A stretch of 64,000 nucleotides of DNA, from contig CAVWLW010000074.1 of assembly GCA_963755715.1 (NCBI GenBank), forward strand, positions 64,001 through 128,000, written 5' to 3'. Of this stretch, positions 7,785 to 64,000 are shown piece by piece; position 1 is the first letter of the stretch; each line of letters starts with the position of its first letter. The translations under genes and the position numbers were made by a program. The notes under the pieces were generated by a model. The model saw only the letters and a program-made list of their open reading frames with translations, was not told the origin of the DNA and made no database searches. Origin of the DNA: an uncultured delta proteobacterium. Its GTDB lineage: Bacteria > Desulfobacterota > Binatia > UBA9968.

Positions 7785-9446
7785 CTATTGCATTACCTGA
7801 TCGATCACCACATCTACGTTCTTTGTCCCCACTTCCGCAGGATTTTTTTTGTACTCCCCGGTCATGTCGCCGGGGGTGCGGGTGACGGGGTTGCCGTCTT
7901 TGTCGAGGCGAACGGTGAGGTTGATCTTGCCGGTGAAGGGCGTGCCTTGCATCATCACGTTTTCCTGACTCAACGAGTAGGTAAGCGGAAAGACCGGCTT
8001 GTCGATTTTTTTGACGGCGAGGGGCGGGCCGCCGGCGCCGCCGCCGGGGCGGGCGATGATGAACAGCGCGGCGTTGGGATCGACGTTGGCTTTGAGCTTC
8101 GGGTCGATAGTGATTTTGCCACTGATTTGTGCGGACGATGGCGCAGCGGCTGTCGGAGTCTTCTCAGTTGCGGCTGATCGGGTTGAGTTGCCGCCGGTCG
8201 CCGGGATCTCGGCGAGCACTTTGACGATCTCATTTCGTTGTTCGCCTGCGGGAAGGAGATTCAAAAGCCGCTCCAGGATTTCACGCGCGCCGGCAAAATC
8301 TTTTTTGTCTTGGTACAAGACCATCCCTTTGCCCCAGAGCGCCATGGGAAAATTCGGCGCTTGAGATAAAGCTTTGTCGAAGGCCATCAACGCGCCGTCG
8401 CCGTGACCGGCTTGCACCAAAATAAATCCCATGTAGCTGTGTGCTTCCGGATTGTTCGGATCGGCGGCGAGGACTTTTTTGAAAGCTTCGATCGCTTTGG
8501 GAAAATCCTGATTGCCGAAAGCCTGTTTGCCTTCGTTGAGCGCTGCGCGGACCTCGACGGATGAGGAGTTGGTGCCGGTCAGGAAATCGCCGGTCATCGT
8601 GTCGTTTTCCGATTCGCGCGGGCGCACCGACTTGGTCAGCATCACGCCTAACGCCAGGCCGAAGAGCATAAGAAAAGTTCCACCGGCAATGATCTGCCAG
8701 CGGCGGAATTGAGATGGGTTGGCGTTGACCTTGACGTCACGAGCGCGGGACTTGCCCGCAGGCGCGGGCTTGGCTGCGGGCTCCGGCGGCAGCGAACCGA
8801 GTTGTTGAATGACGGTGCCCGCTTTGGTTTCGATCTCCTGCTTGAGCCCCGTGTAGTCCGACTCAGAAAGTTTGCCGGATTGAAAGTCGAAGTCTAGATC
8901 GATCAATTCATTGCGCAGCCGGGCGCGCTCGCGCAACAGTTGGGCCTTGGCGCTCGCGTCTTCAAGATCAGGCTCTTCGACATTTTTACGCAAAAGCTCA
9001 GCGCGGATTTGTTGAGAAACCGGCGCCGGAGCCGCGCTTTGCTCCGCGTTTTTTTTCCTGGCCACCCAGCGCCGCACAAACCAAAGCGCGGCGCTGACGC
9101 CGAGCACGAGCACGACGTACGGCAGGATCCACAAAAGCGCGCTGAAACCGGTAGTCTTCGGTTTGAGTAGCACCCATTCGCCGTATTTCGACACGAAGAA
9201 GGCTTTGATCTCGTCAGGCGATTTGCCGGCCTGCAGCTGCTCGCGCACGATGGCGCGCATCTGCTGGGCCATTTCCGAAGGCGAGTCGGCGACCGAAAGA
9301 TTTTGACAAACGACGCAGCGCAGCTCGGTGGCGACAGCGCGGGTTTGGTCGTCGAGATCGGGCGCGGTTGCGGCGTGGAGTGGATGAACGAATAAGACCC
9401 ATAGGGCGAATATGGCAAATAGCGTGCTTGGGCTCATCGTCTTCAT
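7785..9446 (-). CDS. ccmH: Cytochrome c biogenesis CcmH fused to CcmI/CycH-like TPR and C-terminal domain
   Basis: LRCVVCQN motif, FFVSKYGEWVLL, two TM segments, TPR repeats, C-terminal PPLAVKK...RLDKDG domain; true start MKTMSPS at 9446 overlaps the ccmG stop. Confidence 0.88.
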   Translation of the reverse strand: MKTMSPSTLFAIFALWVLFVHPLHAATAPDLDDQTRAVATELRCVVCQNLSVADSPSEMAQQMRAIVREQLQAGKSPDEIKAFFVSKYGEWVLLKPKTTGFSALLWILPYVVLVLGVSAALWFVRRWVARKKNAEQSAAPAPVSQQIRAELLRKNVEEPDLEDASAKAQLLRERARLRNELIDLDFDFQSGKLSESDYTGLKQEIETKAGTVIQQLGSLPPEPAAKPAPAGKSRARDVKVNANPSQFRRWQIIAGGTFLMLFGLALGVMLTKSVRPRESENDTMTGDFLTGTNSSSVEVRAALNEGKQAFGNQDFPKAIEAFKKVLAADPNNPEAHSYMGFILVQAGHGDGALMAFDKALSQAPNFPMALWGKGMVLYQDKKDFAGAREILERLLNLLPAGEQRNEIVKVLAEIPATGGNSTRSAATEKTPTAAAPSSAQISGKITIDPKLKANVDPNAALFIIARPGGGAGGPPLAVKKIDKPVFPLTYSLSQENVMMQGTPFTGKINLTVRLDKDGNPVTRTPGDMTGEYKKNPAEVGTKNVDVVIDQVMQ

Positions 9447-52533: not shown

Positions 52534-55131
52534 ATGGAAGAACGCTACCAACCCAAAGCGATCGAGGAAAAGTGGCAGCAACGCTGGGAGGCTCGCCGCG
52601 CATTCACCGCGAGCGAGGATGCGGCAAAGCCCAAGTACTACGTCCTGGAGATGTTTCCTTATCCATCCGGCCGTATTCACATGGGGCACGTGCGCAATTA
52701 CTCCATCGGCGACGTGGTCGCGCGCTACAAGCGCATGCGCGGTTTCAACACGCTCCATCCGATGGGCTGGGACGCCTTCGGCTTGCCGGCTGAAAATGCC
52801 GCCATCGAGCGCGGCGTGCATCCGGAAACGTGGACGCAGGAAAATATTCTCTACATGAAAACCCAGCTCAAACGCATGGGACTTTCCTACGATTGGGAGC
52901 GCGAGCTCGCCACTTGCGAGCCCGAATACTATCGCTGGAATCAATGGATCTTTCTCCAGTTTTTCAAAAAAGGGCTGGCTTATAAAAAGAGCTCCTTCGT
53001 CAACTGGTGTCCGTCGTGCGAGACGGTTTTGGCCAACGAGCAGGTCATCGACGGCCGATGTTGGCGTTGTGATTCGCTGGTCACGCAAAAAGAGCTCGAG
53101 CAATGGTTTTTTCGCATCACGGATTATGCGGAAGAATTGCTGAGCGATTTGGACACGCTGAGCGGCTGGCCCGACAAAGTGCTCACCATGCAGCGCAACT
53201 GGATCGGCAAGTCGGTGGGCGCCGAAATCGATTTTCCCTTGATCGGACATGAAGGGGCGCTGCGCATTTTCACGACGCGACCGGATACGATCTTTGGCGC
53301 GACGTTCGTTTCCCTCGCGATCGAACATCCATTGGCTTTCAAGCTCGCCGTCGGCACGGCGCAAGAAGCCGCGGTGAGAGCATTCATCGAGCGATTTAAG
53401 AATATCAGTCAGACCAACCGGGGCGCAGAGGAAGGAGAAAAGGAAGGCGTGTTCACCGGCGCCTACTGCCTAAATCCGTATACGGGTGAAAACATCCCGA
53501 TCTATCTCGCAAACTTTGTGCTCATGGAATACGGCACCGGCGCGGTCATGGCGGTGCCGGCGCACGATCAAAGAGACTTCGAATTCGCGAAAAAATATGA
53601 TCTGCCGATTCGCGTGGTGATTCAGCCGCGCGACCGCGAGATGCAGTCGACGCCTTTGACCGAAGCCTACGTCGATGAAGGAGTGATGGTCGATAGCGGC
53701 AGTTTTTCCGGCTTGGCGAATACGGTAGGCAAGGAAAAAGTCGCCGCTTACGCCGAGGAAAACGGATGGGGCAAGAAAGCGATTCGCTATCGTTTGCGCG
53801 ATTGGGGCGTGTCGCGCCAGCGTTACTGGGGCACGCCAATACCCATCATCTATTGCGATCGTTGCGGCACGGTGCCTGTGCCGGAGAGTCAATTGCCGGT
53901 GCTGCTCCCGAAAGACGTTCCATTTACCGGCAAGGGCGGTTCGCCGCTCGCCGAAAGCAAACTTTTTTCCGAAGTCGCTTGCCCTCAATGCGGCGGTCCG
54001 GCGCGCCGCGAAACCGACACCATGGACACTTTCGTGGATTCGTCGTGGTATTTTTTGCGTTACACGTCAGCCAGATTTACCGAGGGACCGTTTGACGCCG
54101 AAAAAGCACGCTATTGGATGGCGGTGGATCAGTATATCGGCGGCGTCGAGCACGCGGTTTTGCATCTTCTTTACGCGCGCTTTTTTACCAAGGCGCTGCG
54201 CGATTTGGGCCTGGTCAACGTCGACGAGCCGTTCAGTAACCTCTTGACCCAGGGAATGGTCTCAAAAGAGACTTACCGATGCATTGAGCATAACTGGCTT
54301 TTTCCGGGAGAACTCATCGGCTCGGAAAAAGAAGGCTGGAAGTGTCCCCATTGCGGCCGACCCGTGGAACGCGGCCGGGTGGAGAAAATGTCCAAGTCGA
54401 AGAAAAACATAGTCGACCCGGAGGAATTGATAAATCTTTACGGCGCCGATACCGCGCGTTTGTTTACGCTCTTTGCCGCGCCGCCGGAAAAGGATCTGGA
54501 GTGGAGCGATCAAGGCGTCGAGGGCGCTTATCGTTTTCTCTCCCGCTTGTGGAGATTCATTTATCAAAACCGGCAGTATTGGTTTACCAGCTCAGCCAAT
54601 GGCGACGATAGTCAAGTTTCAACGGAACTGCGCGATCTGCGGCGCGCGATCCACCGAACCATTAAGAAGGTCGGCGACGACATCGACGGACGGTTTCATT
54701 TCAATACGGCGATCGCCGCGATTATGGAACTGTTCAACGCTCTGAGCGCGGCGGCGCAGATGAGACCTGAGTCGAGCGCGGCAAGGCAGGTCGTTAAAGA
54801 AGGGACCGAGGCGATCATTGTGCTGCTGGCGCCGTTTGTCCCGCACGTCGCGAGCGAGCTGTGGGAAGAGTTGGGTCATGGCCAGCACTTGGATCAGGCT
54901 CCGTGGCCGAGTTACTCAGAAGCGGCATTGGCGGAAGAAGAATTGCTGATCGTCGTTCAGGTGAACGGCAAAGTGCGCGGCAAGATCACGGTGCCCGCCG
55001 ACGTGACTCAGGAATATATCGAAACCAATGCGCTGGCCGATCCCAAGGTCCTCGGTTTTCTGGACGGTAAAAATGTCCGGCGGGTGGTTTACGTGCCGCG
55101 CCGCTTGGTCAACATTGTCGTGGAGGGCTAA
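52534..55131 (+). CDS. leuS: Leucine--tRNA ligase
   Basis: [18 protein letters not shown], editing domain [15 protein letters not shown]. Confidence 0.99.
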
Positions 55132-57976: not shown

Positions 57977-60106
57977 ATGATCTCGTTTGTTATCGCGATT
58001 AGCTGCTTGTCGTTGGCCTTTGCAGTCTATTTGGCCCGCTGGGTGCTTCAGCGGGACATGGGAACGCAAAAGATGCAGGAGATTTCCAACGCGATCAAAG
58101 AGGGCGCCGAAGCGTTCATGTCGCGGCAGAACCGAACGATCATCAGTTTGTCGGTAGCGTTGGCCGTGCTGATCTTTCTCCTCTATGCCTTTGTGCGCAC
58201 GCCGAGCCCAGCCGATCCGGTGCCGCCGGTGGCGATGGCTTTCTGGACCACACTATCGTTTGTCCTGGGCGCTGCCTGTTCCGTGATTGCCGGCTATGTC
58301 GGTATGTGGGTATCCATTCGCTCTAATATCAGGACTGCATCCGCGGTTCGTTCCAGTCTCAATGAGGGCCTTCGGATCGCGATGCGCGGCGGTGCGGTGT
58401 CCGGTTTGTTCGTCGTCGCCATGAGTCTATTGGGAGTCGGCGGCCTCTACGCTTTGCTTGAGTCCCTGGGCCACGATCCGCAAAAGATCCCTTTCACCAT
58501 CGTCGGTTATGGGTTCGGTGCTTCGTTTGTCGCGCTGTTCGCCCAGCTCGGTGGCGGTATTTACACAAAAGCCGCTGACGTGGGCGCCGATCTCGTCGGC
58601 AAAGTTGAGGCCGGCATCCCGGAGGACGATCCGCGTAATCCCGCGGTGATCGCCGACCTGGTCGGCGACAACGTCGGTGACTGCGCCGGCCGCGGCGCCG
58701 ATCTGTTTGAATCCACCGCCGCGGAAAACATCGGCGCGATGATTCTCGGCGTCGGACTCTATCCTTACTTCGGAATCAAAGGGATCGTTTTTCCCTTGGT
58801 CGCCAGGGCCCTGGGGCTGATCGCATCGATCGTCGGTATTATGATCGTCAAGACTGAGGAAAAGGGCGATGCCATGGCGGCTCTCAATCGCGGCTATTAT
58901 GTGACGAGCATTCTCGCGGTTGCCGGGTTTTTCATGACTGCCAAATTGCTGCTCGCGGTCGATGTGACCAAGCATCCTGAAGCTGAGTCCGCGTGGATCT
59001 ATTTCTTCCTCTGTGGCGTCGTCGGCATCCTGATGGCCCAGGCGTTCGTTTACATCACTCAGTATTACACTGAGTATAAATACCGGCCGGTCAGAGAAAT
59101 CGCCGAAGCGTCTAAGACCGGCCCGGCCACTAACATTATTGCCGGCATCGCCGTCGGTCTCGAATGCACGGCGATTCCGGTCTTGGTGATTTCGGTGGCC
59201 ATCATCACCTCGTACTATCTTGGCCTGGCGAGCGGTGTGAAGAATGCCGGCCTGTTCGGCACGGCTGTGGCCACCATGGGTATGTTGGGCACCGCGGCTT
59301 ACATCTTAGCTATGGATACTTTCGGTCCGATCACCGACAACGCCGGCGGTATCGTCGAGATGAGCGGCCAGCCGGAAGAGGTTCGTCAAAAAACCGATCG
59401 TCTCGATGCCGTCGGCAACACCACCAAAGCTCTGACCAAAGGCTACGCCATTGGTTCAGCGGCGCTGGCGGCGTTCTTATTGTTTTCGGCGTACCTCGAC
59501 GAAGTCGCTCACTACGGCCATCCGTTGGAAGTTGTCAACATCGCTAAGCCGGAGGTGTTTGTCGGCGGGTTGCTTGGCGCGATGCTGGTTTTTCTATTCT
59601 CGTCTTTCGCGATTCGCGCCGTCGGTAAAGCCGCTTACTATGTTATCAACGAAGTGCGCCGGCAGTTCAGAGAAAATCCCGGCATTCTCCAAGGTACAGT
59701 GAAACCGGATTACCGCCGCTGCGTCGATATCGTCACTGTCGGCGCGCTCAAGCAGATGATCGTTCCCGGCCTTCTCGCAGTCACCATGCCGGTCGCCGTC
59801 GGTCTCGTTTTCCGTATGTTCGGCATCGGTGCGGAAGCGGTGGCGGCATTCTTGATGGTCGGCACGATCGCTGGCATCTTGATGGCAACGTTCTTCAATA
59901 ACAGCGGTGGCGCTTGGGACAACGCCAAGAAGTTCATCGAGAGCGGGCAGTACGAAGGCGGCGGCAAAGGTTCCGATCCGCACAAGGCCGCAGTCGTGGG
60001 CGATACCTTGGGCGATCCGTTCAAAGACACCGCCGGCCCGAGCTTGCATGTCTTGATCAAGCTGTTGGCGACGATCACGCTGGTCTTGGCGCCGTTGTTC
60101 GTTTGA
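57977..60106 (+). CDS. hppA: Membrane-bound ion-translocating pyrophosphatase (K+-independent signature)
   Basis: GGGIYTKAADVGADLVGK, EDDPRNP, DNVGD, GNTTKA, GGAWDNAKK, GDPFKDT. Confidence 0.97.
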   Translation: MISFVIAISCLSLAFAVYLARWVLQRDMGTQKMQEISNAIKEGAEAFMSRQNRTIISLSVALAVLIFLLYAFVRTPSPADPVPPVAMAFWTTLSFVLGAACSVIAGYVGMWVSIRSNIRTASAVRSSLNEGLRIAMRGGAVSGLFVVAMSLLGVGGLYALLESLGHDPQKIPFTIVGYGFGASFVALFAQLGGGIYTKAADVGADLVGKVEAGIPEDDPRNPAVIADLVGDNVGDCAGRGADLFESTAAENIGAMILGVGLYPYFGIKGIVFPLVARALGLIASIVGIMIVKTEEKGDAMAALNRGYYVTSILAVAGFFMTAKLLLAVDVTKHPEAESAWIYFFLCGVVGILMAQAFVYITQYYTEYKYRPVREIAEASKTGPATNIIAGIAVGLECTAIPVLVISVAIITSYYLGLASGVKNAGLFGTAVATMGMLGTAAYILAMDTFGPITDNAGGIVEMSGQPEEVRQKTDRLDAVGNTTKALTKGYAIGSAALAAFLLFSAYLDEVAHYGHPLEVVNIAKPEVFVGGLLGAMLVFLFSSFAIRAVGKAAYYVINEVRRQFRENPGILQGTVKPDYRRCVDIVTVGALKQMIVPGLLAVTMPVAVGLVFRMFGIGAEAVAAFLMVGTIAGILMATFFNNSGGAWDNAKKFIESGQYEGGGKGSDPHKAAVVGDTLGDPFKDTAGPSLHVLIKLLATITLVLAPLFV

Positions 60107-60124
60107 TTGCGATTCGCCGACTGC

Positions 60125-60151
60125 GAGGGCCTCTCCACCCGGAGGGGCCTT
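60125..60151 (+). terminator. Stem-loop after hppA
   Basis: GAGGGCCTCTCC-accc-GGAGGGGCCTT. Confidence 0.55.
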
Positions 60152-60206
60152 CACATTTTCCGGCATAAAAGTTTGTGCTAAAAATTAGTCTGCTACTCCG
60201 TTCCTC

Positions 60207-60254
60207 GCCCGGATGGTGGAATAGGTAGACGCAAGGAACGTAAAAATCCGGGCA
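60207..60254 (+). pseudogene. Truncated tRNA-Leu copy (acceptor and D arm kept, variable and T arms missing); likely attL
   Basis: GCCCGGAT...ATCCGGGC-A closes an acceptor stem; anticodon arm degenerate. Confidence 0.75.
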
Positions 60255-60280
60255 GTGCGAAAAATCGAATACTGCATGGG

Positions 60281-60315
60281 AAACGGGGAGTTAAGCCAAC
60301 TCCCCGTTTTTATTT
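60281..60315 (+). terminator. Rho-independent terminator after the tRNA fragment
   Basis: AAACGGGGAGTT-aagcc-AACTCCCCGTTTTTATTT. Confidence 0.8.
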
Positions 60316-60485
60316 AATCTTTCCATACTATCTCGGATTGTGCTAAACGTTCAGATTGTCCACATCGGGCGCATTCTTCACCGAATTTGTTTACAGGGTG
60401 TTTACATAGATGGCGGCAACCGAGTTTGCTCCATCTATTCAGGTTTTTATTTACCCGGCGAAACTAACCTTCGCGCGATGGCAAA

Positions 60486-60659
60486 ATGCCTGACAACAAA
60501 CCCAACGAAATAAGCCTTGCGTTACTGAACGAGCGCATGGATCAGTTGACGCGCAAGATCGGGATATTGGATCACGACGATCCGCGCCGCGCGAAGATCT
60601 TCAAAGAGATGCTACGGCTCAATGATTTGGCGAGGGAGATGAAAAAAGATGGCAAATAA
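60486..60659 (+). CDS. Small hypothetical protein (~57 aa)
   Basis: Manual translation MPDNKPNEISLALLNERMDQLTRKIG...; helical; below the ORF-track cutoff. Confidence 0.4.
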   Translation: MPDNKPNEISLALLNERMDQLTRKIGILDHDDPRRAKIFKEMLRLNDLAREMKKDGK

Positions 60660-60750
60660 CGAAATCGAAGCGGCGACCCCTTCCCCTGCCTGAAACACCG
60701 CCGTTTTATCAGCGCTCAGAGGAGCTGAAGCAGCTCATGTGTCGGCCTCT

Positions 60751-60984
60751 TCATGTGAAGACGCACTCACTTTCAAATCGATGAAATTCCTTCTCTGGCA
60801 CACCAAACTTTCGTAGGACCAATCGCAATTTCTTGCTCCAACGTTCGGCAGTTTCGTGTTGGGCTTTGTGGCTCACGATCAAACAAATATAAGCGCAGAC
60901 AGTCTTGGAGTGGCCATTGACAAGCCGTTTAGGAAAGTGCTCGGCCCAGCTCCGCTCTATATCCGTTTCCTCGATCGGGTTCAT
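60751..60984 (-). CDS. Hypothetical protein
   Basis: 77-aa ORF downstream of and co-oriented with 61025-61246. Confidence 0.4.
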   Translation of the reverse strand: MNPIEETDIERSWAEHFPKRLVNGHSKTVCAYICLIVSHKAQHETAERWSKKLRLVLRKFGVPEKEFHRFESECVFT

Positions 60985-61024
60985 TGCTAGTCTAATTATT
61001 CCAGAGCGTGACTATAGGCAAAGC

Positions 61025-61246
61025 TTAGAAACAAGAGCCGTAACGTTCTACGTATTTAGGATCAGCGAACATACACGAATCACACACGTACTGTTCGTTC
61101 TCGCGCCGGTACTCTTCCCACTTTGTCATGTCATAAAAGCCAGCGGTAAACTGTTCACCTCGAATCCCCTCAACGATTTGTTTGCAGCGGTCACAGAGAA
61201 CTTTAATTGTTTTGATTCGAGAGTGCGAAGAGGCTTTAACTGACAT
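61025..61246 (-). CDS. Small CxxC...CxxC (zinc-finger-like) protein
   Basis: CDRC and CDSC motifs; GAAGGAG RBS. Confidence 0.6.
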   Translation of the reverse strand: MSVKASSHSRIKTIKVLCDRCKQIVEGIRGEQFTAGFYDMTKWEEYRRENEQYVCDSCMFADPKYVERYGSCF

Positions 61247-61622
61247 GCACTGTCTCCTTCCTTCCCGCTACCGTAAAGCAGGCCGGGGTCTCGCTACCTG
61301 GACGTGGAGAAACACGGCTTGGCCTGCGACCGCCCGCCTTCAATGTGCGATTATCCGTGCCCCGGCCCGGTTCTTTTTATGGTTGCCTTGTATTGCAGAA
61401 CCCGGAGCGACAACCAAGCGAGTTCTGCCGGATCATCGGTCCATGAAATCCGCTCGCTTTTGTTATTGACTACGACCCAGGCGCACAGTTTGTTGACATA
61501 CGCCAATACTGGCCGGTCGTTTAACCAGCGGTCCATTCCGCGTTCTCCTTGGATGTTAAGCCCGTTGTAAAGTGGAACGCGAAAAAAGAAAGAAAGCCGA
61601 TTGCCGGTTGAACGCTAATCGA

Positions 61623-62306
61623 TTAATTGTCTAGCCGCTGACGTTTTCTTAGAAACGGAAGACCGCCGAAGCCCACCGCGAATAAAAGAAGCGAAGCAGG
61701 CTCCGGAACTGCCGCAGTTGGCGATCCTGAAGGTGTAAAGCTCAGGTTCGCGATCTGGCCGGTTACAGTTCTCGTATCACCAAACTGAGATGCTGCAGTA
61801 TAGGACGCTGGATCATTAACCGAGATATCGAATGCGCCGGTACCGAGCGCATTGGAATAAGACAGATGCTGAGCGGCGTTGGCGAAGTCGATCGTTAGCA
61901 GACTACCGCTGCCAATGTTATTTGAATTGCCACTGCGCAAAATCGTCCCGAAGATATCAGCTGTAAAAAGCGCCGGGCTTCCGGACACGACCGGATCGGT
62001 AAATGTAATTCTCAAAGTGAAGTCAGTAATGCCGTCTTGACTCCCGAACGGCTCTTCGCAGCCTCTGCTTCCGCATACATTGAGGGTAAAAGTTCCGAGA
62101 TTTGTCAGGCTCGTCGGACCAGGACCGATCGGCACGTCGATATTTACAAAGCTGGCGCCTGTGTAGGTTAGGAAGGTGTCGATAGTTGTCGGCGAACTCG
62201 TATTAGTGTTTCCCGTGAACAAAATCGCTTGCGCTGTTCCGATAATGCCCAGCGCTCCAGCAAGTAGAGTCGCTAAAAAAACAAAACTCAGCATGTTTCT
62301 CTTCAT
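61623..62306 (-). CDS. PEP-CTERM sorting domain-containing exported protein
   Basis: Signal peptide ending AQA, Thr/Ser/Gly-rich beta domain, C-terminal VPEPASLLLFAVGFGGLPFLRKR. Confidence 0.9.
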   Translation of the reverse strand: MKRNMLSFVFLATLLAGALGIIGTAQAILFTGNTNTSSPTTIDTFLTYTGASFVNIDVPIGPGPTSLTNLGTFTLNVCGSRGCEEPFGSQDGITDFTLRITFTDPVVSGSPALFTADIFGTILRSGNSNNIGSGSLLTIDFANAAQHLSYSNALGTGAFDISVNDPASYTAASQFGDTRTVTGQIANLSFTPSGSPTAAVPEPASLLLFAVGFGGLPFLRKRQRLDN

Positions 62307-62351
62307 TTCTTTGCCCCGCTCGGAGAACTTCAAGATGATTTACCTCGGTAG

Positions 62352-62436
62352 AGCAATTGTTAGACCGTTTTCAGATCTGATTGACTTTGTTGCATTTGAT
62401 CATGCGAAATGGGCTTTAGTTGTAAACAAGATTTAC
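62352..62436 (-). promoter_or_regulatory. Sigma54 promoter plus TGTAAA-N5-TTTAC enhancer-like site for the PEP-CTERM gene
   Basis: Minus strand GG-tctaacaatt-GCT at 62366-62352; TGTAAAcaagaTTTAC at 62421-62436. Confidence 0.55.
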
Positions 62437-62487
62437 GGGATTCGAAGCGGGGTTAGTGCCCTCCGAATATTTCGATCTTTTTCAGTG

Positions 62488-62771
62488 TCAATATTGTCGG
62501 AATCTGTGACACCGCGGCGGCAGATTGACGTCGGTAGGATTATGCGTCTTTGGAAAGACGAGCGGCTGGCCCAATGCCCATTCGGTAGATCCCTTCTTTG
62601 TTTTTTTGCCATTGGACATGCCATCCGGTTGGTAGTGTCGCTGCATTGCGGCACGAAGCAATTTCAATGCGAAAGGCTTGTGCATTATTGCTCGATCGAC
62701 AAGCGATCCGTAGGAAAGGCGGTAGTTACGATCACGGGTATGTTGCGCGTCGACGGATCCGCTTTGAGCCG
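62488..62771 (-). pseudogene. Response-regulator receiver domain remnant
   Basis: RLKADPSTRNIPVIVTTAF, then in another frame MHKPFALKLLRAAMQRH (KPF motif); N-terminal half missing. Confidence 0.6.
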
Positions 62772-62799
62772 CCCTCGTGCTACTAGCTTTCTGTCTCGT

Positions 62800-63086
62800 G
62801 TTCGCAACGGCCGGCCTGTGAAGAGCATCCGAACCGCGTTCGAACGGGCAATTGAAAAAGCGGCGATCGAAGATCTACGATTGCACGATTTCCGACATAC
62901 GTGCATTAGGCGCTGGGCTACGGAGGGAATTCCGCAGCGATCATAGCCGCGGCCGGACACCATTCGATCGAGCAGAACAACGACTACGTGAACATGAAAG
63001 ACGATCATCTTCGAGCAGCCTTCAAATTGTTTACACCACGTTTACACGGTAAACCGGTTGAAAATCAGTGCGTCGCAAGTTATTGA
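62800..63086 (+). pseudogene. Tyrosine recombinase/integrase C-terminal remnant
   Basis: LRLHDFRHT (HxxR), then frameshifted AAAGHHSIEQNNDYVN (GH...Y catalytic); N-terminal part deleted. Confidence 0.85.
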
Positions 63087-63096
63087 TTTTACTTAC

Positions 63097-63182
63097 GCCC
63101 GGATGGTGGAATAGGTAGACACAAGGGACTTAAAATCCCTCGGACCGAAAGGTCTGTGCCGGTTCGAGTCCGGCTCCGGGCA
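63097..63182 (+). tRNA. tRNA-Leu (anticodon TAA), CCA not encoded
   Basis: Acceptor GCCCGGA/TCCGGGC+A, anticodon stem AGGGA/TCCCT with TAA at 63131-63133, long variable arm, GGTTCGAGTCC T arm. Confidence 0.96.
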
Positions 63183-63326
63183 TCACATCCAATTACAATT
63201 AAATGGGTAAAATCATGTTGCGCATGGTTTTTAACAAAGCAAATTGACGAGCGGTTTGCGACGCAATTATCCGCGATTGTGTTATGGGAGTTGACGAAGT
63301 AGCCGCTGTCACGAAAGGCATAACCC

Positions 63327-63861
63327 ATGTCTGTGATCACTGAGATCGCGCGCGTGTTGCGTGATCAGTTCGTCGCTCTCATCTTGGATAACGAGGTGAC
63401 GGTGGGAGAATTCGTCGTGCAACCGCCGCTTCCTTGGCTTCGGCTCGTCCAGGAGAACGGTGTCTTTAGAGTAGCGCAGGGCTATCCCACGGTCTTGAGC
63501 GCCGCGCAAGCCAAGTTCGAGATGAAGAACTGGGATCAGGTTTCTGGGCCGAGCATTCAACGCGCTTTAGACGGAAATCAATGGCGGCGTAGACTATGTG
63601 CTATTCGGCAACAATGCCGGACAAGGCCTGCCGCTGGCGCAGAGTCTGGCGCCAGACTTGATCACCGAACACGCCGCGATTATCTATGCCAACAGTCTGC
63701 CGGAGAAAAAAATCTATGAGCAATTGGGTTACCGGACTTTTTTTCGCCGCCGCGAGGCGGTGTCCCGCCTTTTGGAAGTGTCCGCCAGCGCAACCCGCCC
63801 GCTAGCGCTCTGTTTCATCAATACCATCCAACATAACGAGCTTAACTACCACGATCCGTAG
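63327..63861 (+). CDS. Hypothetical protein, split by a +1 frameshift near 63575
   Basis: Two overlapping ORFs (63327-63719, 63598-63861) join if one base of ACGGAAATC is removed. Confidence 0.6.
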
Positions 63862-64000
63862 TCGACCTGCATCAACGCAGACGGCGAAACGGCGCGCGCT
63901 GGAAACATCCGACTAAGATGCCGCTCGTTGCTCGTGGCAAGACGCGTCGGGATTACGAGTCGCCACCTTGCAATAAGAAGGCGCAGGACTGTTGAGCTGC

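What the first reader, a model, noticed from the sequence alone, without database searches (positions are those of the whole stretch)
60206..63182. Integrative element that targets the 5' (D-arm) end of tRNA-Leu(TAA), leaving the intact tRNA at the distal end
Seen: the 25-bp direct repeat covers tRNA nucleotides -1 to 24. The defective copy is next to hppA, behind a TGcTAAAAAT extended -10-like element. The complete tRNA lies 2.9 kb downstream, 10 nt after the integrase stop. Known: most tRNA-targeting tyrosine integrases duplicate the 3' part (anticodon loop, T loop or 3' end) and leave the intact gene at its own promoter. Inference: reversed geometry, suggesting an integrase family with D-arm specificity; the element is now reduced to an islet.
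Basis: partly seen in the sequence, partly recalled or inferred. Interest (0 to 1): 0.75.

Follow-up and report, generated by a model that had tools for sequence, protein, structure and literature searches.

The report
Decayed mobile-element stub upstream of tRNA-Leu
A 2.9-kb dead remnant of a mobile element sits between hppA and tRNA-Leu(UAA), inserted in the rarer but already documented way that rebuilds the front half of the tRNA gene, with the crossover at the anticodon loop rather than the D arm.

Summary
A 5' piece of tRNA-Leu(TAA) lies 100 nt after hppA, and the intact gene lies 2,890 bp downstream, 10 nt after the stop of an integrase remnant.

It is 40 nt (37/40 identical) and ends at the 3' edge of the anticodon loop.

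A syntenic MAG (L003) has the same layout with a perfect 42-nt repeat ending at the same place. All 5 genomic relatives of the integrase with at least 33% identity place the end of int about 10-90 nt before a co-oriented tRNA. None of the 9 assessable distant relatives does.

So this is the stub of an integrative element of the reversed, 5'-fragment type, with an anticodon-loop crossover. D-arm specificity is not supported.

The geometry is not new. Islander lists 159 of 3,919 islands with a 5' tDNA fragment (PMC4383910), and other papers describe 5' integration.

Additional features, all inferred:
- paired GTTTACA repeats near both ends, which may be arm-type sites;
- a terminator in the left arm;
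- a possible tRNA promoter inside the last int codons.

No empty site was seen. This is a new member of a known kind, of modest interest.

The parts
57977..60106 (+). hppA, the left chromosomal flank (context, not part of the element)
   Evidence: Pfam H_PPase, 891.8 bits. Syntenic with L003 at 74% nt identity up to 60099.
60206..60245 (+). Displaced 5' fragment of tRNA-Leu(TAA), positions -1 to 39. This is the attL host arm plus the overlap region. It has 3 substitutions, and an extra A follows at 60246.
   Evidence: 40 nt, 37/40 identical to 63096-63135; E 1e-10. Not recognised as a tRNA by ARAGORN or Rfam.
60239..60246 (+). Anticodon-loop equivalent in the fragment (CGTAAAAA). Inferred crossover region of attL, now mutated.
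   Evidence: The identity block ends here. L003's perfect 42-nt repeat ends 3 nt beyond the loop.
60247..60254 (+). TCCGGGCA, the first bases of the element's P' arm. It equals the 3' acceptor strand plus the discriminator of the tRNA. With the A before it, it pairs with tRNA nt 1-8.
   Evidence: Sequence. An 8-bp helix appears in the folds of both the window and L003 fragments. L003 has TCCGGGTA at the same place.
60279..60311 (+). Intrinsic terminator in the P' arm
   Evidence: 14-pair stem followed by a T run. L003 has an 18-pair terminator at the collinear position, 8493-8532.
60389..60406 (+). Tandem GTTTACA pair, 11-bp spacing. Candidate arm-type integrase sites in the P' arm.
   Evidence: The pattern GTTTACANNNNGTTTACA occurs twice in 64 kb, against 0 in 100 shuffles. 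5 of the 7 single GTTTACA copies lie in the islet.
60486..61536 (.). Four small ORFs of unknown function: 60486-60659 (+), 60751-60984 (-), 61025-61246 (-, CxxC...CxxC), 61351-61536 (-)
   Evidence: No Pfam family above cut-off. 61025-61246 matches phrog_12041 (unknown function) at E 2.8e-4. No tblastx similarity to the loci or to the rest of the window.
61623..62333 (-). PEP-CTERM protein gene; cargo or a later arrival
   Evidence: Pfam PEP-CTERM, 21.2 bits against a cut-off of 20.7.
62704..63086 (+). Tyrosine integrase pseudogene: only about residues 258-394 of about 390, with a 4-nt deletion near 62937
   Evidence: tblastn with P0003 and P0004. Alignments. Pfam Phage_integrase E 5e-4, 20.3 bits, below the 27.1 cut-off. 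PHROG integrase families at E 1e-5.
63029..63046 (+). Tandem GTTTACA pair inside the int 3' coding region. Candidate arm-type sites in the P arm.
   Evidence: The identical pair occurs at the same position in L002, 7440-7457.
63058..63086 (+). Candidate promoter for the rebuilt tRNA: TTGAAA, 17 nt, TATTGA (Tyr codon plus stop). Inferred only.
   Evidence: TTGA(AA/CG)-N17-TATTGA is conserved in the window and L001-L004. It is not called by the consensus scan because the last -10 base is A.
63097..63182 (+). Intact tRNA-Leu(TAA). The inferred crossover (attR) is the anticodon loop, 63129-63135.
63327..63861 (+). Right chromosomal flank: a conserved gene of unknown function, frameshifted in the window
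   Evidence: 73% aa identity to the 177-aa ORF downstream of tRNA-Leu in L001, split over two frames at about 63570.

Best explanation
Window 60206-63135 is the decayed remnant of a site-specific integrative element. The element inserted into the chromosomal tRNA-Leu(UAA) gene downstream of hppA.

Its tyrosine integrase gene lies at the right end, co-oriented with the tRNA, and stops 10 nt before it. Its attP carried tRNA nt 1 to about 39-42. The crossover took place in the anticodon loop, whose stem supplies the symmetric core sites.

Integration displaced the host's own 5' half, with the host promoter, to the hppA side (attL). It rebuilt a complete tRNA from the element's 5' half and the host's 3' half next to int (attR).

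Afterwards the element lost most of its content:
- int lost about 257 N-terminal codons and acquired a 4-nt deletion;
- the orphan 5' half picked up 3 substitutions and 1 insertion.
The stub cannot move by itself.

Inferred but not shown:
- The rebuilt tRNA is transcribed from a promoter embedded in the last int codons.
- The P'-arm terminator stops transcripts coming from the orphaned tRNA promoter. In the circular form it would terminate int.
- The paired GTTTACA repeats about 85-100 nt upstream and about 145-160 nt downstream of the crossover are arm-type integrase sites.
For: Shown:
- A 40-nt direct repeat (37/40) begins at tRNA position -1 and ends at the anticodon loop.
- The integrase remnant aligns to the C-terminal third of intact 386/394-aa homologues, including HxxR, the second His and the catalytic Tyr.
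- L003, a MAG syntenic over leuS-lptE-rpsT-tatC-hppA at 72-74% nt identity, has the same order: hppA, 5' fragment (42/42), 2.2-kb islet, broken int, tRNA-Leu(TAA). Its interior is unrelated to the window's.
- In 5 of 5 genomic relatives with 33-59% identity, the end of int lies about 10-90 nt upstream of a co-oriented tRNA. Four are tRNA-Leu(TAA) and one is tRNA-Ser(CGA). In 0 of 9 assessable relatives at 21-31% identity is this so, and L006 has the usual order of tRNA first and int after it.
- In L001 the DNA upstream of int carries Prim-Pol/PriCT/D5_N primase and HNH genes. Downstream of the tRNA is a gene shared with the window's right flank.
- In L002 the downstream genes are chromosomal in type, such as uvrB.
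- The left arms of the window and L003 are collinear: TCCGGG(C/T)A, CGA-N5-TCG, then a strong terminator.
- The GTTTACA-N4-GTTTACA pattern occurs only twice in 64 kb, once near each end of the islet on the same strand, against 0 in 100 shuffles. It also occurs in the P arm of L002.
- Islet GC is 0.46-0.53, against 0.56-0.60 in hppA.
- The ORF overlapping the broken int, with the same premature stop, exists in another public assembly: P0001, a cluster of 28 sequences.
Against: - No empty hppA-tRNA-Leu site was seen in any relative.
- The left ends of the larger elements in L001, L002 and L005 are not within the DNA held: no 5' repeat lies within 7.5-11 kb upstream. Only two complete att pairs support the boundary, the window and L003.
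- In the window the perfect identity stops at nt 24. The anticodon-loop copy in the fragment carries a substitution and an insertion, so decay has to be assumed.
- None of the four close genomic int copies is an uninterrupted full-length ORF. L001 has at least 2 frame changes, L002 has 1, L003 is truncated and shifted, and L004 is cut by the contig end.
- The proposed -10 (TATTGA) lacks the conserved final T and is not called by the scan. Its conservation could instead reflect the protein tail ...SY-stop.
- The Pfam integrase score of the remnant is below the gathering cut-off.
Confidence: 0.85

Rival explanations
1. One reading: the same element, but the integrase recognises and crosses over in the D arm (tRNA nt about 10-24). 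The weaker similarity beyond nt 24 is incidental.
For: The perfect identity in the window is exactly -1 to 24. A preprint reports Klebsiella islands at the 5' end of arg2 whose recombination site comprises the acceptor 5' half, D-stem and D-loop (10.1101/2020.11.02.365908, passages).
Against: - 12 of the next 15 positions still match, and the block ends precisely at the loop edge.
- L003's repeat is perfect through nt 42.
- Both left arms continue with TCC, the start of the 3' anticodon stem strand.
- An element that crossed over in the D arm would have no reason to carry nt 25-42.
Confidence: 0.07
2. Tandem duplication of tRNA-Leu followed by decay of the upstream copy, with an unrelated integrase fragment lying between the copies by chance.
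For: Right after the loop, the fragment carries TCCGGGCA. This equals the tRNA's 3' acceptor strand plus discriminator, as an internally deleted tRNA gene would.
Against: - The placement of int directly before a tRNA recurs in 5 of 5 relatives, including one next to a tRNA-Ser.
- L003 has a perfect end fragment stopping at the same nucleotide.
- No 3' fragment or second T arm is found anywhere.
- Paired repeats mark both ends.
Confidence: 0.04
3. An assembly artefact or chimeric contig joining a partial tRNA read to foreign DNA.
For: The window is of unknown origin. A conserved gene just downstream (63327-63861) also has a frameshift, so some indel error cannot be excluded.
Against: - An independent MAG (L003) has the same architecture in the same synteny.
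- The int lesion is a 4-nt deletion, not a homopolymer slip.
- A near-identical ORF with the same premature stop exists in another public assembly.
Confidence: 0.02

Closest known systems
Islander-class genomic islands with a 5' tDNA fragment (Hudson, Lau and Williams 2015, PMC4383910; passages and Table 1 read)
   Same: A tyrosine integrase island bounded by an intact tDNA and a co-oriented 5' end fragment lying upstream. The island is longer than 2 kb. This class makes up 159 of 3,919 islands in that database.
   Different: This one is a dead stub with a broken int that scores below the Pfam cut-off. Its integrase clade is not named in any library I searched. I did not see which integrases the 159 islands use.
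[quoted passage not shown] I saw only the title and its citation in PMC6563490 and PMC1635311. The paper is not held.
   Same: Reversed orientation of the target tRNA gene relative to the element.
   Different: Details are unknown to me. The host, tRNA, crossover site and integrase family could not be compared.
Klebsiella pneumoniae islands at the 5' end of arg2 (bioRxiv 10.1101/2020.11.02.365908; passages read)
   Same: Islands integrated upstream of the target tDNA, with a 5' repeat.
   Different: Their repeat is described as the acceptor 5' half, D-stem and D-loop. Here the repeat continues through the anticodon loop.
Anticodon-loop ('A') sublocation integrases (Williams 2002 classification, as summarised in PMC4383910 and in the Klebsiella preprint, which cites ICEAfe1 needing 19 bp around the anticodon loop)
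   Same: The identity block is bounded by the anticodon loop. The symmetric anticodon stem serves as the presumed core sites.
   Different: [quoted passage not shown]
Mx8 and SSV integrases whose gene extends across attP (mentioned in PMC4383910)
   Same: attP functions overlap the int coding region. Here the candidate arm sites and promoter lie in the last 20 or so codons.
   Different: int stops about 10 nt before the tRNA and is not split by integration. L005 may be an exception: there the frame runs into the tRNA.
Phage lambda int, with its terminator and sib site lying across att (recalled, not checked in any call)
   Same: A terminator that follows int in the circular form is moved to the far end of the element by integration.
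   Different: No evidence here for RNase III-type retroregulation. The integrases are only distantly related.

Membership tests
Tyrosine recombinase / phage integrase (PF00589) | Significant match to the catalytic domain | tested here: inconclusive
   The remnant scores 20.3 bits (E 5e-4), below the 27.1 cut-off, and covers profile positions 97-148 of 172. Its full-length homologues P0003 and P0004 score 74 and 67 bits. The remnant is 55-79% identical to them over the aligned part.
Tyrosine recombinase / phage integrase (PF00589) | A complete catalytic set (R, K, HxxR, H/W, Y) in one open frame | tested here: not met
   Only HDFR, GHH and the Tyr region remain. About 257 N-terminal residues, including the first Arg and the Lys, are absent, and a 4-nt deletion splits the frame. 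It is a pseudogene.
tDNA-integrated genomic island, by the Islander filters (PMC4383910) | A tDNA plus a co-oriented end fragment (not an internal one) of the same tDNA in the same replicon | tested here: met
   The fragment starts at tRNA nt 1 (with -1), on the same strand, 2,890 bp upstream.
tDNA-integrated genomic island, by the Islander filters (PMC4383910) | Configuration: a 5' fragment must lie upstream of the tDNA; an integrase ORF lies between; length is 2-200 kb | tested here: met
   The 5' fragment is upstream, an int remnant lies inside, and the length is 2.89 kb. Caveat: the int score is sub-threshold.
Anticodon-loop sublocation class of att sites | The element-host identity block is bounded by the anticodon loop, with flanking stem symmetry | tested here: met
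   The window block ends at loop position 39, with TCC following. The L003 block is nt 1-42, perfect. Strand exchange itself was not observed.
   The L003 repeat is 42/42 through the anticodon loop, and the window has 37/40.
Integrative mobile element (any) | An unoccupied site in related genomes | not tested
Integrative mobile element (any) | Excision or integration activity | not testable with these tools
   This needs an assay with an intact homologue.

The most novel reading that the evidence does not exclude
This integrase clade has 81 clusters (50%-identity representatives) at E<=1e-30. It may be hard-wired for reversed tRNA targeting, with its last 10 or so codons doing double duty.

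The conserved tail is [V/L/I][E/D]-x5-S-Y-stop. At DNA level this is always NTT-GA(A/C)...TAT-TGA, which would be the -35 and -10 of the promoter that drives the rebuilt tRNA. The preceding codons hold arm-type sites.

The P' arm supplies a terminator and an acceptor-strand mimic, which turn the orphaned 5' half into a harmless hairpin transcript.

One consequence follows. Once int dies, the host's tRNA-Leu(UAA) depends on the int 3' stub, so the stub cannot be deleted. That would explain why two genomes keep only this part.
Probability: 0.35. Interest if true: 0.55.

Novelty: new member of a known kind. Interest (0 to 1): 0.3.

Why it matters
It gives a clean, boundary-resolved example of the minority way of using a tRNA gene as an integration site: 5' half replaced, anticodon-loop crossover. 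The example comes from an uncultured deltaproteobacterial lineage, and the geometry proves to be a stable trait of one integrase clade.

If the embedded-promoter idea holds, it would show how such elements solve the problem that makes this geometry rare, namely cutting the tRNA off from its own promoter. It would also show why their stubs persist.

For annotation, the 60206-60245 fragment and the 62176-62946 ORF should not be called genes.

Tried and rejected
- Rfam at a permissive threshold over 59900-64000 found only the intact tRNA and one chance snoRNA match (E 1.1). The fragment is not a recognisable RNA gene.
- The sigma-70 consensus scan found 3 promoter-like sites against 3.4 expected. 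One window-specific site (62852-62881) is not conserved in L002 or L003.
- tblastx of the islet interior against all 15 loci and against window 1-60000 gave no hits. The interior cannot be tied to the original element.
- tblastn of P0004 against 50,697 phage records gave 319 records, all below 60% identity and the best about 25% (P2-like Burkholderia phages). That is too distant to test attP structure.
- NCBIfam gave only weak Xer-like similarity, far below the cut-offs.
- A search for the left ends of the larger elements in L001, L002 and L005 found no 5' repeat in the 7.5-11 kb held upstream.
- The helix closing the fragment is not by itself significant: z -1.5 for the short pieces. Only the longer pieces, which include the terminator, stand out, at z -3.2 and -4.5.
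- Papers not held: Williams 2002 (PMC100330), Zhao and Williams 2002 (PMC139527), Mageeney 2020 (PMC7192596).
- The TIGER/Islander 2025 announcement says nothing about 5' fragments in the passages shown.
- I considered that the window and L003 stubs descend from one ancestral insertion and think it less likely. The window's int remnant is 81% identical to L002 but 73% to L003, and the interiors are unrelated. I could not decide this.
Full report
**What is there**

The window ends with a chromosomal block: leuS, lptE, rpsT, a small lipoprotein gene, tatC and hppA. hppA stops at 60106.

One hundred nucleotides later, at 60206, a stretch begins that is identical for 25 nt to tRNA-Leu(TAA) positions -1 to 24. 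It is 37/40 identical over 40 nt (E 1e-10 within the window).

The only tRNA gene in the window is tRNA-Leu(TAA) at 63097-63182 (Rfam 59 bits), 2,890 bp downstream on the same strand.

Ten nucleotides before it is the stop codon of a reading frame that aligns to the C-terminal third of 386-394-aa tyrosine integrases. It keeps the HxxR, GHH and catalytic Tyr motifs.

**Where the repeat really ends**

The 40-nt block ends at the last base of the 7-nt anticodon loop (tRNA nt 33-39). After one extra A, the next three bases (TCC) again match the 3' strand of the anticodon stem.

The three substitutions lie at nt 25, 31 and 34. The one at nt 34 hits the base before the anticodon, and the one at nt 31 breaks an anticodon-stem pair. 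They therefore look like decay of a piece that no longer functions.

**Related loci**

Of 57 pattern matches, 15 loci were confirmed.

- In all five loci with 33-59% identity (L001-L005), the end of the integrase lies about 10-90 nt upstream of a co-oriented tRNA. Four are tRNA-Leu(TAA) and one is tRNA-Ser(CGA).
- Of the ten loci with 21-31% identity, nine have enough downstream DNA to judge, and none has this arrangement. L006 shows the common order, with the tRNA first and int after it.

The geometry is therefore a trait of this integrase clade.

**L003**

L003 is the most informative locus. It is syntenic with the window from 51.6 kb to the end of hppA at 72-74% nucleotide identity.

After hppA it has a perfect 42-nt copy of tRNA nt 1-42. 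Then come 2.2 kb of unrelated DNA, a truncated and frameshifted integrase, and tRNA-Leu(TAA).

The repeat again ends just past the anticodon loop.

**L001 and L002**

In L001 the DNA upstream of int encodes a Prim-Pol/PriCT/D5_N primase and an HNH nuclease. The gene downstream of the tRNA is the homologue of the window's right-flank gene. The mobile DNA is therefore on the 5' side of the tRNA.

In L002 the downstream genes include uvrB.

**Interpretation**

An element that rebuilds the tRNA needs to match it only from the crossover to the end of the gene that it restores.

A block running from nt 1 to the anticodon loop therefore places the crossover at the loop. This is one of the recognised att sublocations (PMC4383910, Table 1 footnote). 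The difference here is that the element carries the 5' part rather than the 3' part.

L003 contradicts it.

**State of the element**

- int retains about residues 258-394 only.
- int has a 4-nt deletion relative to L002 and L003.
- A near-identical ORF with the same premature stop occurs in another public assembly (P0001).
- The interior holds four small ORFs without family assignment and a PEP-CTERM protein gene.
- The interior has no similarity to the other loci.
- Islet GC is lower than that of hppA.

**End structures (inference)**

*Left arms.* The left arms of the window and L003 are collinear. Each has TCCGGG(C/T)A, which with the preceding A pairs with tRNA nt 1-8. Next comes a CGA-N5-TCG motif, then a strong intrinsic terminator at 60279-60311 in the window and 8493-8532 in L003.

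In the integrated state this terminator would stop transcripts from the orphaned tRNA promoter or from hppA. In the circular form it would follow int.

*GTTTACA pairs.* GTTTACA-N4-GTTTACA occurs twice in the window, against none in 100 shuffles. One pair lies 143-160 nt right of the attL crossover. The other lies 83-100 nt left of the attR crossover, inside int. L002 has the same pair in the same place.

These are good candidates for arm-type sites and would give an attP of about 260 bp.

*Possible promoter.* TTGA(AA/CG)-17 nt-TATTGA is conserved in the window and in L001-L004. TATTGA is the final Tyr codon plus the stop.

Eleven of the 155 family proteins inspected end in SY. Ten of them fit [VLIM][ED]-x5-[ST]Y. 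Many of the 155 are fragments that lack the C-terminus.

This could be the promoter that such an element must supply. Against it, the -10 lacks the usual final T, the consensus scan does not call it, and conservation of the protein tail would give the same pattern.

**Comparison with the literature**

- Islander lists 3,760 islands with a 3' tDNA fragment and 159 with a 5' fragment. Its filters explicitly accept a 5' fragment upstream (PMC4383910, passages and Table 1).
[quoted passage not shown] It cites Zhao and Williams 2002 and four archaeal studies (PMC6563490, passages).
- A Klebsiella preprint reports islands at the 5' end of arg2 (10.1101/2020.11.02.365908, passages).
- I could not read Zhao and Williams 2002, Williams 2002 or Mageeney 2020. 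A closer precedent may exist there.

**Limits**

- No empty site was seen.
- Only two att pairs define the boundaries.
- No close genomic int copy is intact. Frameshifts in MAGs may be sequencing errors.
- The window also has a frameshift in the conserved downstream gene.

**Verdict**

The feature is real and correctly spotted. It is an integrative-element stub with the reversed (5'-fragment) geometry and an anticodon-loop crossover, which makes it a new member of a known minority class. D-arm specificity is not supported. The embedded promoter, the terminator role and the arm sites are testable hypotheses.

Noticed in passing
window 63183-63185: The tRNA-Leu gene is followed by TCA, not CCA. 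L001, L002 and L003 encode CCA after the same acceptor end. In this organism the 3' end would have to be added or repaired by the CCA-adding enzyme.
   Followed up: no
window 63327-63861: The conserved gene downstream of the tRNA is split over two frames near 63570. It is 73% aa identical to an intact 177-aa ORF in L001 and has no Pfam family. This is either a pseudogene or an indel error in the window.
   Followed up: partly
L005 10700-10973: In this more distant relative (33% identity; the record is titled as an archaeon MAG), the integrase frame shows no stop before the tRNA-Leu(TAA) start and appears to read into it. It may be a case of int overlapping attP.
   Followed up: no
L001 3915-8077: The element upstream of int carries a QSregVF_b/DnaJ-like ORF, a Prim-Pol/PriCT-1/D5_N primase, a Pox_D5-like ORF and an HNH nuclease. 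This is a satellite- or plasmid-like replication module. Its left end lies beyond the 10 kb held.
   Followed up: partly
L001 10001-11123; L002 6314-7494: Both otherwise full-length integrase genes change frame: L001 at least twice and L002 once. Together with L003 and the window, none of the four genomic copies that are not cut by a contig end is open throughout.
   Followed up: partly
window 60258-60267; L003 about 8472-8481: The left arms carry CGAAAAATCG (window) and CGATTTTTCG (L003) at the same distance from the crossover. These are reverse complements of each other. It may be a bending-protein or recombinase site, or chance.
   Followed up: no
L003 9827-10020: The ORF that contains the L003 integrase remnant starts with about 60 residues that do not align to the integrase family. 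The 5' part of int seems to have been replaced by other DNA.
   Followed up: no
window 52534-55131: leuS (leucyl-tRNA synthetase) lies 8 kb upstream of the targeted tRNA-Leu, in the conserved block leuS-lptE-rpsT-tatC-hppA. This is probably a coincidence.
   Followed up: no
window 62176-62946: A 256-aa ORF spans the int remnant and non-coding DNA upstream of it. A 203-aa version is deposited as a predicted protein elsewhere (P0001). It is most likely a spurious gene call.
   Followed up: partly
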